64,000 nucleotides of DNA. Source: Paecilomyces variotii (Eukaryota). The stretch lies in NCBI GenBank assembly GCA_004022145.1, contig RCNU01000008.1; one strand, written 5' to 3'. Below the pieces are notes generated by a model. The model saw nothing but the letters and a program-made list of their open reading frames with translations. It made no database searches and was not told where the DNA came from. Both the position numbers and the translations under genes were made by a program. Positions 38,264 through 43,243 of this stretch are shown here, one piece after another; the stretch's first letter is position 1; the number at the start of each line of letters is the position of its first letter.

Positions 38264-39014
38264 TTACAGAACGGAAAGGTCGCCAAAGCGCTCCTGCGGG
38301 TCGCGAAGCATTAGTAAAGAGTTCAAAGATCGACCAGATGCCACGAAAATGGGCGGGGTAGAAGGCAAAACGCACCTTGTAGCCAGGCGGCATCCATTTG
38401 CCCCGGATAACCAGGGAGGCGGTCTTCTCGTCGATCTCGGGCTGAGCGGCAGCAACCTCGTCCTGCAAAGTAGCAAACATATCTTAGTACACCATCCAAG
38501 ATCACACGTTCGGGCCGCCGGAGCGAAACATACCACAGTGAGGTCCTCGAATGGGCGGGCAGTCTCGATGTTCTCGAGGGTCTTCTGCAGGTTGGACAGC
38601 TCGGCCTCGACCTTGCCCTTGGTCTCCTCAGCGTTCTTGACGGCCTGGGCCTCGAAAGCGTCAATGGCCTTCAGTTGGCGGTTGACGTCGTAAGTGGCCG
38701 GCTTGAAGCTCTTGAAGTAGTTCTCGATCTCATCAACGACCGCCTGGTTCTTCAGGATCTTGCGGTAGTGGGCGAAGTCGACAGTCTGGGGCTGCTCAGA
38801 CAGCACCTGAACCTTGCGGCGCGCATCGTCGTTACGCTTCTTGAAGGCCTGGAGGGAGGCGGCAGTCTGACCGCGGAGGCCCAGCGAGCCGGTCACCTTG
38901 GTCCAGTCAAGCTTGAGGGCAGCGCTGCGCTGTAAACACAGAGTTAGCGGCGTCAGTCCATGCGACAATCGAGAGACACAGGGTAATTGGACTCAATTGA
39001 CGTACTGCAGCCAT
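38264..39014 (-). CDS. atp7: Mitochondrial ATP synthase subunit d, 4 exons
   Basis: [12 protein letters not shown]..., [34 protein letters not shown] introns. Confidence 0.95.
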
Positions 39015-40936: not shown

Positions 40937-41605
40937 CTAAGACGACTTGGCGGCAGCCCGGACCTTGGCGTGCGCCTTCGCGATCTCGTAACGAGCCTGC
41001 AAGGAAGGTATCCAGTTAGCCCAATGTTTCTTCTTTTCCCTCCGATTGTAGTATACACCCATTCATCCTGGAATGTGTGTCCAACTTCGCAGATAACTCC
41101 TCCCGGTGGTAGAAAACAGTATCAACGTACCTGCTTCCTGAGTCTGAGGACCTTGAAGCGCTCGAAGTCGGTCAGGTTCTTTCTCCGCTCCTGCTGCTCG
41201 CTGCGCTTGGCGAAGCTGCTCTGAGCGAACTTGGCGTCGATCTCGTTCTTCTCCCACAGCTTCTTCACGGGGCCAGTACCGGCAGCACGGGGCAGACGGG
41301 GGATGACGAAAGGAGTGAGGGTAGCGTGAGAGAGAGCAAGGACGTGACGGGGGACGACCTTGTTCTCCTGGCTGGAGGGACCGTCGACCAGAACCTGCAA
41401 TTCGCGATTTGAATCAATATGATATTCGATTGACCGCCAAACCAACTCATTTCCCCCTTTGATTCTGGATGTCACGTACACGTCTGTGGTCAACGATCTC
41501 GACAATAGTAGCCAGCTTGCCGGTGTAGGGGCCGCTGCGGATGAGCACAACGCGCCCAACCTCAACAAGCTTCCATGACGAGACTTTGATATCGATTTCG
41601 GCCAT
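40937..41605 (-). CDS. rpl14: 60S ribosomal protein L14 (eL14), 3 coding exons plus 5'UTR intron 41617-41695
   Basis: [39 protein letters not shown]; last exon [19 protein letters not shown]. Confidence 0.95.
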
Positions 41606-42122
41606 GGCGAAGGCTTCTGAAAAGGCGCACACTGGAGTTAGCGTAATTGCAACCAGCAGAACGCAGCGGCGATGATAATGCTCGGGGAAACTCACGGTCG
41701 TCGACTCCGGATTGGCGTAACGGTGGTTGTTGGTCGAAGAGTCGAGTGTCGAGTCGTCCGGAGCGAAGTTGCTGTGCTGGATCGCGAATTTCGGAGGTGG
41801 AAGCGTCGCCCACAATGAGTCTCGCTTAGCAGCCAGTAGCAGCCCGCCAAAGGCTTCTGTGTGGTCTAGGGCTGTCGTCCCACCTTGTTCTAGCGCGTCT
41901 TAGCCGAGTTGTTTTTCCGATCCGGAAAGCTCTTTTTAAGCCCCGAAGCTTCCCCCTCTTGTTTTTTTCCCCCAGTGCTGCATCTACAATGGTAGAGAAA
42001 TGCGTTCTACCGGTGCCAGACATATCATGATTCCAGCTCGACTCTCCCACTAACACGACTGTGCTCTCGCAGCTCTATTGTCACTGGTATGTATACAGCA
42101 TTGTTTCTTCCTGTCGTTCTTC

Positions 42123-42228
42123 TTACATGATGCGGTAATTTGCGATTGACCCAGCTCTGTGAAACCCTCGCCGGGGTTTCAAAAGCAGTGCTGGCGTATG
42201 ATATTCATTTCTTACATATTCTGATATG
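42123..42228 (+). ncRNA. Box C/D snoRNA, snR87/U16-like (SSU rRNA Am436 equivalent)
   Basis: Box C ATGATGC 42127; guide GGTAATTTGCG 42134-42144 complementary to SSU CGCAAAUUACC; D' TTGA 42146; internal stems ccagc/gctgg and tgaaaccc/gggtttca; C' ATGATA 42198; D CTGA 42221. Confidence 0.85.
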
Positions 42229-42399
42229 CACTTCTATATCGTGTTTCATTTCATCCCAAGTTTTGCCCAATGTTCTTGGCTGACTCGAAAAAAAAAGACA
42301 AACAGGTATTCAGGTCAACCCAATCTTCACCCTGCTTTGCCAACCGTTTTTATTATTCATCTATATGGTACGTTGATGCCTTTTGCGCTTCCCCGTCTC

Positions 42400-42485
42400 T
42401 CCGATGATTACACCCTATCATGCCTAGATAGTAAATGACGCCTTCGGGCGATGATCTATCCTTTTATCACCAAGATCTCTGAGGA
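42400..42485 (+). ncRNA. Dual-guide box C/D snoRNA: D guide snR24/U24-like (LSU Cm1437), D' guide snR65-like (LSU Um2347)
   Basis: tcc/gga terminal stem; C ATGATTA 42404; guide CTAGATAGTA 42424-42433 plus D' ATGA 42435; cgcc-TTCG-ggcg hairpin; C' ATGATC 42451; TTATCACCAAGATCT plus D CTGA 42479, matching the recalled 3' end of yeast snR24. Confidence 0.88.
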
Positions 42486-43243
42486 CCTCCAACCATCACT
42501 ATGTTGTCACCCGCCCTCTGATTGTCCAGGGACTGACATTTATATTCAGTAGGAAATGGTCTTGGCAGCAAAATTTGAACTCCGGCAACTTGCGTCCATT
42601 GCTTTGTTTTGGCAAGAGATCCAGTCGTATCTCACTGTGTAGGAAGGCGATAGTTAGAATTATGAATCCAAAAAATTATTATCAGGCATATCATTCGAAA
42701 CCTTCTAGTTTCTTGTAATTCTCAAGCGTATCAGCTTGATGGCTTAACCTCGCGGACTATATTCAACTTATCACGCGTTTCTTGATGATGTGGTAGAATG
42801 TAAACATGCCAATTCCCTTCTCTTACACGTACTACTATCTCTTTGACGTGCTCCCAAAGGACACACTATTGAGATCCCCATGTCAGACACGAACCACGCA
42901 AGAGAGTATGTCCACTCGAAACGTATGTCAAGCGTCTTTCGGGAACTTGACTTGTTGGTAATATCCCGCAGCCTATTACTGCACTGCAACTGACGTGCTA
43001 GTCAATACTATAGGTGGAAAGCAAATGCAGATTCCAGTAAGCTGAGAATTGCAGTGCGATGAATCATAATCAATGTCCATCTGGATAAATATCTGCTATG
43101 CGTTTCTAGGAGAATCTGATTTGTTTTCGTCAATTGGGTGGAAAGTTTGTTATCTATATATTTTCGCGTCTCTCAAAGTCTTTCGTTCAGAACTTCCAAG
43201 TAAAATTCGCTAGCTACACCATCTATCATCATTATCTCTATAA

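What the first reader, a model, noticed from the sequence alone, without database searches (positions are those of the whole stretch)
42400..42485. Single C/D snoRNA combining the yeast snR65 and snR24 target guides
Seen: a complete C-D'-C'-D layout with a cUUCGg hairpin. By the +5 rule, the D guide (CACCAAGATCT) selects the C in LSU AGAUCUUGGUG and the D' guide (CTAGATAGTA) selects the U in LSU UACUAUCUAG. Known: in S. cerevisiae these sites are Cm1437 (snR24) and Um2347 (snR65), served by separate snoRNAs, and snR24/U24 normally carries the Am1449/Gm1450 guide at D'. Inference: the guides have been reassorted into one RNA, so another snoRNA should cover A1449/G1450. It may already be catalogued in other filamentous fungi.
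Basis: partly seen in the sequence, partly recalled or inferred. Interest (0 to 1): 0.75.

Follow-up and report, generated by a model that had tools for sequence, protein, structure and literature searches.

The report
U24-like snoRNA carrying an snR65 guide
An intron-encoded methylation-guide RNA of an Aspergillus-type fungus carries in one molecule two ribosomal-RNA guides that baker's yeast keeps on two separate RNAs; this is a modest reshuffling of a well-known kind of gene.

Summary
Window 42400-42485 (+) has a full box C/D layout: C, D' guide, D', a UUCG hairpin, C', D guide, D and a 3-bp terminal stem.

- **D guide:** it is the U24/SNORD24 guide. By the +5 rule it selects the C of LSU AGAUCUUGGUG, which is yeast Cm1437.
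- **D' guide:** it pairs over 10 bp with UACUAUCUAG and selects exactly the U that is 2'-O-methylated by snR65 in yeast (Um2347).
- **Genomic setting:** RNA contigs show the element sits in intron 2 (42368-42549) of a short, spliced, polyadenylated, non-coding host transcript. Intron 1 of that transcript holds the known snoRNA Afu_514. The host gene lies head to head with an eL14 ribosomal protein gene.
- **Conservation:** in a roughly 94%-identical relative, 38 substitutions fall across the locus and none falls in either snoRNA.
- **Not shown:** the mature RNA, the methylations, the organism's own rRNA, and how widely the arrangement occurs.

Splitting and recombining of snoRNA guides in fungi is well documented. 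U24 is already a single-function RNA in N. crassa, S. pombe and human. I therefore rate this a new member of a known kind, of modest interest. It may be listed in supplements I could not open.

The parts
41977..42692 (+). Host transcript of the two snoRNAs. Start and poly(A) site are approximate and taken from a close relative.
   Evidence: a 756-nt contig of run X5 (organism B) lies on 41977-42692. It has a template-switch-adaptor-like loose end before 41977 and GGA(18) behind 42692. The contig is unspliced.
41977..42086 (+). Host exon 1
   Evidence: joint 42085>42297 (cut +1), GT..AG.
42087..42297 (+). Host intron 1 (211 nt): GTATGT...GCTGAC...AG
   Evidence: joint seen in X1 (1 contig, depth 78.4) and X7 (1 contig). 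Sequence.
42123..42226 (+). Known box C/D snoRNA Afu_514, inside intron 1
   Evidence: RF01515, 103.3 bits (gathering 39), E 3.5e-18; 74 cDNA clones in A. fumigatus.
42298..42367 (+). Host exon 2 (70 nt)
   Evidence: Lies between the two joints.
42368..42549 (+). Host intron 2 (182 nt): GTACGT...ACTGAC(42532-37)...AG. It holds the candidate snoRNA.
   Evidence: joint 42366>42549 (cut +1), GT..AG, in X1 (1 contig, depth 30.7). Sequence.
42400..42485 (+). Candidate box C/D snoRNA (about 86 nt), U24-like
42404..42410 (+). C box AUGAUUA (position 6 is U, not G)
   Evidence: Unchanged in relative X8.
42424..42433 (+). D' guide CUAGAUAGUA. A42430 is the 5th base upstream of D'. It pairs with LSU UACUAUCUAG, the yeast Um2347 site.
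42435..42438 (+). D' box AUGA
42439..42450 (+). Hairpin CGCC-UUCG-GGCG between D' and C'
   Evidence: Also in the centroid fold.
42451..42457 (+). C' box AUGAUCU
   Evidence: Aligned to GaUGA of the SNORD24 model.
42465..42478 (+). D guide UAUCACCAAGAUCU. It forms 14 bp with LSU AGAUCUUGGUGGUA, including one G-U. G42474 is the 5th base upstream of D and pairs with the yeast Cm1437 site.
42479..42482 (+). D box CUGA
42550..42692 (+). Host exon 3, up to the poly(A) site
41131..41394 (-). Exon of a ribosomal protein eL14 gene, head to head with the host gene
   Evidence: PF01929 Ribosomal_L14e, E 1.8e-29.

Best explanation
The element is an intron-encoded box C/D snoRNA, the local ortholog of U24 (snR24/SNORD24). 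It is released from intron 2 of a short non-coding, spliced, polyadenylated host transcript. Intron 1 of that transcript yields Afu_514. The host gene is transcribed divergently from the eL14 gene.

The C/D and C'/D' motifs would assemble a fibrillarin (Nop1) snoRNP. The D guide (14 bp) would direct 2'-O-methylation of the LSU cytidine equivalent to yeast C1437. The D' guide (10 bp) would direct methylation of the uridine equivalent to yeast U2347, the job done by the separate snR65 gene in S. cerevisiae.

I infer the following history. In a lineage where the A1449/G1450 function already sits on a separate U24b-type RNA, the vacant D' slot of U24 holds the snR65-type guide.

**Shown:** the motifs, both complementarities and their register, the intron position, host splicing, and conservation in a relative.
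**Inferred:** the mature RNA, snoRNP assembly, both methylations, and the history.
For: **Anatomy.** The full C-D'-C'-D layout is in place, with a terminal stem and a UUCG hairpin.

**Family.** The only Rfam family that matches is SNORD24. The alignment runs end to end over model positions 1-76, and the D guide ACCACCAAGAUC plus CUGA align at high posterior probability.

**D target.** The eukaryotic LSU reads AGATCTTGGTGGTAGTAGCAAATAT in 34 of 37 rDNA loci fetched; 3 differ within the 4-base spacer that the search pattern left free. L256 and L273 are confirmed as LSU_rRNA_eukarya. The paired C lies 12-13 nt before an AG, as for Cm1437/Am1449/Gm1450, which are guided by U24.

**D' target.** The exact 10-mer lies 914 nt downstream of the first target in L256; in yeast 2347-1437 = 910. 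Its context, TCCCTATCTACTATCTAG, is identical to the yeast T1 fragment in which the paired U is Um. That methylation is lost in an snR65 deletion.

**Setting.** GT..AG joints place the element in intron 2. The spliced host RNA is 323 nt and its longest ATG ORF is 28 aa.

**Conservation.** In X8 all 38 substitutions and 6 indels lie outside 42400-42485 and outside Afu_514. Given the flank rate of 0.070 per nt, P(0 in 86 nt) = 0.0019. A better-looking C box, UGAUGC at 42374-79, is hit by G42378>A in all three relatives, so the conserved AUGAUUA is the real one.

**Precedent.** Guide separation and recombination are documented in fungi.
Against: - **No mature RNA was seen.** All runs laid were assembled contigs, which cannot show the ends or level of an RNA.
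- **Not found in the A. fumigatus screen.** That cDNA screen recovered 74 clones of the neighbouring Afu-514 and lists no U24-like RNA.
- **The C box is unusual.** It has U at position 6. A survey of fungal snoRNAs reports box positions other than the first purine and the D-box C as at least 99.7% conserved. All 7 metagenomic U24 genes whose C box could be read keep G there.
- **The D' side is weak.** The D' duplex is only 10 bp and A-U rich (7 of 10). D' is AUGA and C' is AUGAUCU.
- **Rfam score is below threshold.** The SNORD24 score is 23.5 bits against a gathering score of 41.
- **Conservation rests mainly on one relative.** For X5 only 27 of 35 substitutions were listed, and for X7 only 23 of 29. 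The 14 unlisted ones could lie in the element.
- **The organism's own LSU was not examined.** One of the three rDNA loci that reach far enough (L264) lacks the D' target.
Confidence: 0.72

Rival explanations
1. It is a functional single-guide U24 ortholog, like N. crassa CD50. Only the D guide works. The D' complementarity to the U2347 region is not used for methylation.
For: - N. crassa CD50 is listed with one target only, and no N. crassa snoRNA is listed for the snR65 site.
- The D' duplex is the minimum 10 bp and A-U rich. The D' and C' boxes are degenerate.
- Um2347 is absent from human and Arabidopsis in a cross-species table, so the site is not universal.
- Even in yeast it is only about 66-76% modified, and snR65 gave no stable CLASH hybrids.
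Against: - A 10-mer in the exact +5 register on a known methylated U is very unlikely by chance. Only 0.3% of random 10-mers match anywhere in 3.1 kb of LSU.
- The D' guide region shows none of X8's 38 substitutions.
- Several N. crassa guides are accepted at 10/0.
Confidence: 0.17
2. It is a decaying or non-assembling copy. The G-to-U change in the C box breaks the G-C pair with the D box, so no stable snoRNP forms. Another U24 gene elsewhere does the work.
For: - C-box position 6 is reported as nearly invariant in fungi.
- The Rfam score is sub-threshold.
- It was not recovered in the A. fumigatus cDNA screen.
Against: - The element is as free of X8 substitutions as the validated Afu_514, while the flanks differ at 7%.
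- The tandem G-A core (UGA in both C and D boxes) is intact.
- It sits about 51 nt upstream of the putative branch point. Afu_514 in intron 1 sits about 57 nt upstream of its own.
Confidence: 0.07
3. It is a chance assembly of box-like motifs, or a conserved intronic element unrelated to snoRNPs, such as a splicing or regulatory signal.
For: The predicted fold is no better than shuffles (z = -0.03).
Against: - A non-significant fold is normal for box C/D RNAs.
- There are two independent guide matches in register, an end-to-end SNORD24 alignment, and an intronic setting beside a known snoRNA.
Confidence: 0.03

Closest known systems
U24 / SNORD24 (snR24 in S. cerevisiae; U24 in S. pombe; Nc CD50 in N. 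crassa)
   Same: - The D guide is the same (ACCACCAAGAUC type), immediately before CUGA, selecting the Cm1437-equivalent.
- The element is intron-encoded and about 75-98 nt long.
- Several metagenomic U24 genes also have a short stem between D' and C'.
   Different: - The D' guide is not the AUAUUUGCUAC guide for Am1449/Gm1450 seen in the Rfam consensus and in 8 metagenomic U24 genes, 2 of them with one changed base.
- The C box is AUGAUUA, not AUGAUGN.
- Rfam scores it 23.5 bits, below the gathering score of 41.
snR65 (S. cerevisiae)
   Same: It selects the same nucleotide, the Um of UACUmAUCUAG (25S Um2347; 2345 in Taoka's numbering). Deleting snR65 abolishes that methylation.
   Different: - In yeast snR65 is a separate gene.
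- No Rfam family other than SNORD24 matched the element at E up to 10 on 116 nt. I did not verify that an snR65 model is in the library.
- Which box (D or D') carries the guide in yeast snR65 was not checked.
U24b (S. pombe) / Nc CD51 / human U76
   Same: This is the documented solution for the Am1449-type site in species where U24 is split.
   Different: It is a different RNA. None was found in this window, and the rest of the genome is not available.
Documented guide recombination in fungi (Nc CD5 = snR72 + snR78 functions; clans CD_5 and CD_19 'target switches')
   Same: One filamentous-fungus snoRNA carries two guides that budding yeast keeps on two RNAs, and the D/D' positions are preserved.
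   Different: The U24 + snR65 pairing is not mentioned in the main texts I read. The supplements were closed.

Membership tests
Box C/D snoRNA | D box CUGA near the 3' end and a short terminal stem with the 5' end | tested here: met
   CUGA at 42479-82. UCC 42400-02 pairs with GGA 42483-85.
Box C/D snoRNA | C box RUGAUGA near the 5' end | tested here: inconclusive
   AUGAUUA at 42404-10 matches 6 of 7 positions. The GA that forms the sheared pairs is present, but position 6 is U. That position is reported as at least 99.7% conserved in fungi. The variant is unchanged in relative X8.
Box C/D snoRNA | Guide of at least 10 nt complementary to rRNA, with the 5th base upstream of D/D' opposite a methylated nucleotide | tested here: met
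   D guide: 14 bp (one G-U) on the Cm1437 site. D' guide: 10 bp on the Um2347 site. The target sequences came from other eukaryotes' LSU and from yeast data, not from this organism.
Box C/D snoRNA | Stable RNA of about 70-130 nt bound by fibrillarin, Nop56, Nop58 and Snu13 | not testable with these tools
   Only assembled contigs were available.
U24 / SNORD24 (RF00069) | Score at or above Rfam's gathering threshold | tested here: not met
   23.5 bits against 41. E is 1.6 on 5 kb and 0.036 on 116 nt.
U24 / SNORD24 | D guide for the Cm1437-equivalent (human Cm2351 in the table) | tested here: met
U24 / SNORD24 (dual-guide form of budding yeast and plants) | D' guide AUAUUUGCUAC for Am1449/Gm1450 | tested here: not met
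   It is absent from the element. The single-function form exists in N. crassa, S. pombe and human.
snR65 | Guide selecting 25S U2347 | tested here: met
snR65 | Overall sequence similarity to yeast snR65 | tested here: inconclusive
   No such Rfam match at E up to 10. I did not confirm that the library holds an snR65 model, and no snR65 sequence was available.
Intronic snoRNA in a non-coding host gene (UHG-like) | The snoRNA lies within a spliced intron, and the spliced RNA has no long ORF | tested here: met
   GT..AG joints. The spliced RNA is 323 nt and its longest ATG ORF is 28 aa.

The most novel reading that the evidence does not exclude
In the Aspergillus lineage, and possibly more widely in Pezizomycotina, the snR65 function has moved into the vacant D' slot of an already split U24. 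That would be an undescribed inter-family target switch. It would leave no independent snR65 gene and would be carried by a snoRNA with a conserved, normally forbidden U at C-box position 6. The missing snR65 homolog in the N. crassa catalogue would then be explained by an overlooked D' guide in Nc CD50.
Probability: 0.35. Interest if true: 0.4.

Novelty: new member of a known kind. Interest (0 to 1): 0.3.

Why it matters
- **Annotation.** It fills a gap in Aspergillus snoRNA annotation. The published A. fumigatus list has Afu-514 at this locus but no U24 or snR65 equivalent.
- **A testable example of guide movement.** It gives a concrete case of how methylation guides move between snoRNA scaffolds while the rRNA modification pattern stays put.
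- **An easy experiment.** One small intronic element predicts two specific methylations about 900 nt apart in the LSU rRNA.
- **C-box tolerance.** The conserved C-box variant is a natural test of how much the box C/D kink-turn tolerates.
- **Limits.** None of this changes how snoRNAs are understood to work.

Tried and rejected
- **Own genome.** None is held. I could not run a genome-wide search for U24b, for an independent snR65, or for the organism's own rDNA.
- **Metagenome scan for the D guide plus D box.** By eye, 8 are U24 genes, all with the classical D' guide. The other 109 look like chance hits in unrelated DNA and were not studied further. None of the 117 holds TAGATAGTA, so no ortholog with the composite layout was obtained. 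This says nothing about its true distribution.
- **Viral-contig scan for the LSU target.** 119 loci were returned, and none has rDNA context.
- **U24b-type guide in the window.** There is one 1-mismatch hit at 38470 (-). Shuffles expect 1.46, so it is at chance level.
- **Alternative C box UGAUGC at 42374-79.** I rejected it because G42378>A occurs in all three relatives.
- **My first guess for the intron 1 acceptor (42305).** It was wrong. The joint is at 42297.
- **RNA folding.** Not informative (z = -0.03).
- **Earlier findings of this scan.** Nothing was on record.
- **Literature.**
  - Searches for snR65/snR24/Neurospora, snR65/Pezizomycotina and RiboMeth-seq/Aspergillus found no paper describing this composite.
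  - The main text of Canzler 2018 holds no U24, snR24, snR65, 1437 or 2347.
  - The T. rubrum ncRNA paper and the intron paper hold no U24 or snR65.
  - Supplements were closed. Canzler Tables S14/S16, the van Nues 2011 alignments and the Liu 2009 sequences may already list it.
- **Parts of the locus without listed differences in X5 and X7.** These are not evidence, because 14 differences were not shown.

Full report
**What is at the coordinates.** Window 42400-42485 (+) reads, 5' to 3':
- UCC, one half of the terminal stem.
- G, a spacer.
- AUGAUUA, the C box (42404-10).
- 13 nt of spacer.
- CUAGAUAGUA, the D' guide (42424-33).
- A, a spacer.
- AUGA, the D' box (42435-38).
- CGCC-UUCG-GGCG, a hairpin (42439-50).
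- AUGAUCU, the C' box (42451-57).
- 7 nt of spacer.
- UAUCACCAAGAUCU, the D guide (42465-78).
- CUGA, the D box (42479-82).
- GGA, the other half of the stem.

The one blemish is the C box, which has U where the consensus RUGAUGA has G at position 6.

**Family by model.** At gathering thresholds Rfam finds only Afu_514 in the whole window, at 42123-42226 (103.3 bits). At permissive thresholds the candidate matches one family, SNORD24 (U24). The alignment runs end to end at 23.5 bits, below the gathering score of 41. E is 1.6 on 5 kb and 0.036 on 116 nt. The alignment is carried by the C box, the C' box, the D guide ACCACCAAGAUC and CUGA. The model's D' guide AUAUUUGCU has no counterpart in the candidate.

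**The two targets.** No genome is held for this window, so I fetched eukaryotic LSU rDNA that contaminates prokaryote assemblies. This gave 37 loci. L256 and L273 were confirmed as LSU_rRNA_eukarya.

*D target.*
- 34 of the 37 loci read AGATCTTGGTGGTAGTAGCAAATAT; 3 differ within the 4-base spacer that the pattern left free.
- The D guide pairs with AGAUCUUGGUGGUA over 14 bp, including one G-U.
- G42474, the fifth base upstream of the D box, faces the C of AGAUC.
- An AG lies 12-13 nt downstream of that C, matching Cm1437, Am1449 and Gm1450. All three are assigned to U24 in yeast.

*D' target.*
- The D' guide pairs with UACUAUCUAG over 10 bp, with mismatches on both sides of the duplex.
- A42430, the fifth base upstream of D', faces the fourth base of that sequence, a U.
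- In L256 this 10-mer lies 914 nt after the first target. In yeast 2347 minus 1437 is 910.
- It is also present in L250, at +965. It is absent from L264, the third locus that extends far enough.
[quoted passage not shown] In that fragment the paired U is the 2'-O-methylated one.
- That paper numbers the site 2345. It is the Um2347 of other tables, as its Cm2335 is their Cm2337.
- An snR65 deletion abolishes the methylation.

**More than chance.**
- Each guide occurs once in 64 kb. Shuffles expect 0.22 and 0.04 occurrences.
- The two guides lie 34 nt apart on one strand, and each is followed by a D-type box at the right distance.
- Only 651 of 200,000 random 10-mers (0.3%) have a perfect complement anywhere in the 3.1-kb LSU piece, before any requirement on register or on a known methylated base.

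**Genomic setting.** I laid the contigs of four public runs on 41960-42720.
- Run X1 (organism A, 7 contigs, all at least 99% alike) shows two GT..AG joints. They define intron 1 as 42087-42297 and intron 2 as 42368-42549. The first joint is also seen in X7.
- Afu_514 lies in intron 1 and the candidate lies in intron 2.
- A 756-nt contig of X5 (organism B) covers 41977-42692 unspliced. Before it is a loose end that I recognise, from recall, as a template-switch adaptor tail. Behind it is GGA(18). This looks like a full-length polyadenylated primary transcript.
- The spliced RNA would be 323 nt, and its longest ATG ORF is 28 aa. It is a non-coding snoRNA host gene with one snoRNA per intron.
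- Both snoRNAs end 51-57 nt upstream of a putative branch site (ACTGAC at 42532-37, GCTGAC at 42279-84; read, inferred).
- The host gene lies head to head with an eL14 gene (PF01929, E 1.8e-29).
- This fits the A. fumigatus location of Afu-514 between Afu6g03830 and Afu6g03840. [quoted passage not shown]

**Conservation.** X8 is a metatranscriptome contig about 94% identical to the window.
- It differs at 38 substitutions and 6 indels over 41960-42690, and all of them are listed.
- None falls in 42400-42485, and none falls in Afu_514.
- The intron flanks are hit at 42378, 42385, 42389, 42395, 42500 and 42541.
- With the flank rate of 0.070 per nt, the chance of no substitution in 86 nt is 0.0019. 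For Afu_514 it is 0.0005.
- For X5 only 27 of 35 substitutions were listed, and for X7 only 23 of 29. None of the listed ones is in either snoRNA, but the 14 unlisted ones could be.
- The same data rule out a more canonical-looking C box, UGAUGC at 42374-79. It is hit by G42378>A in all three relatives.

**What was not shown.**
- The runs are assembled contigs. They cannot show a mature 86-nt RNA, its ends or its level.
- The A. fumigatus cDNA screen recovered 74 clones of Afu-514 and lists no U24-like RNA.
- The C-box U at position 6 is unusual. A survey of about 5,600 fungal box C/D sequences reports these positions as at least 99.7% conserved. All 7 metagenomic U24 genes whose C box could be read keep G there.
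- The D' duplex is minimal (10 bp, 7 A-U pairs).
- The yeast counterpart site is only about 66-76% methylated.
- snR65 was among three methylation guide snoRNAs (with snR53 and snR78) that gave no stable CLASH hybrids.
- Um2347 has no human or Arabidopsis counterpart in a cross-species table.

The D' function is therefore less secure than the D function.

**Comparison with what is known.**
- The classical U24 of budding yeast and plants carries two guides: D' for Am1449/Gm1450 and D for Cm1437.
- All 8 U24 genes I recovered from metagenomes have that layout.
- In N. crassa, S. pombe, human and mouse the two functions are on separate RNAs: Nc CD50/U24 and Nc CD51/U24b/U76.
- The N. crassa catalogue lists a single target for CD50 and no RNA for the snR65 site.
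- Separation and recombination of guides is an established theme in fungi. Nc CD5 unites the snR72 and snR78 functions, and Canzler et al. describe 'target switches' in clans CD_5 and CD_19.

The present RNA is thus a U24 ortholog of the split type whose D' slot carries the snR65-type guide. I found no mention of this pairing in three literature searches or in the main texts read. The relevant supplementary tables and alignments were closed and may already contain it.

**Verdict.** Most likely (0.72) this is a functional intron-encoded dual-guide box C/D snoRNA. The main rival (0.17) is a U24 ortholog whose D' complementarity is not used. I rate it a new member of a known kind, of modest interest.

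Noticed in passing
window 42123-42226 (+): Afu_514 was listed as an orphan in 2008. It gives a weak end-to-end SNORD16 match (19.9 bits) that shares the guide GUAAUUUGCG. It lies in intron 1 of the same host gene. Canzler 2018 states that 7 of 9 A. fumigatus orphans were later mapped to families with validated targets. Which family Afu_514 went to is in a table I could not see.
   Followed up: partly
window 41131-41606 (-) and 41607-41976: An eL14 ribosomal protein gene lies head to head with the snoRNA host gene. About 370 bp separate its start codon from the host transcript start, which suggests a shared bidirectional promoter. No promoter motifs were analysed.
   Followed up: partly
window 42374-42379 (+): A canonical-looking UGAUGC box sits directly after the 5' splice site of intron 2. 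It is not conserved: G42378>A occurs in X8, X5 and X7. It is a decoy for motif-based snoRNA finders.
   Followed up: yes
window 41960-42720; runs X5, X7, X8: Three other sources (organisms B and C and a food-fermentation metatranscriptome) share most of their differences from the window, about 5-6% divergence. The window's organism therefore has close relatives that carry the same two-snoRNA host gene.
   Followed up: partly
L237-L273: At least 37 assemblies filed as bacterial or archaeal genomes or MAGs contain eukaryotic LSU rDNA fragments. This is contamination in the public records.
   Followed up: no
window 42783-42790 (+): A UGAUGAUG motif lies about 90 nt beyond the host poly(A) site. 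No D box or guide was evident, and it was not examined further.
   Followed up: no
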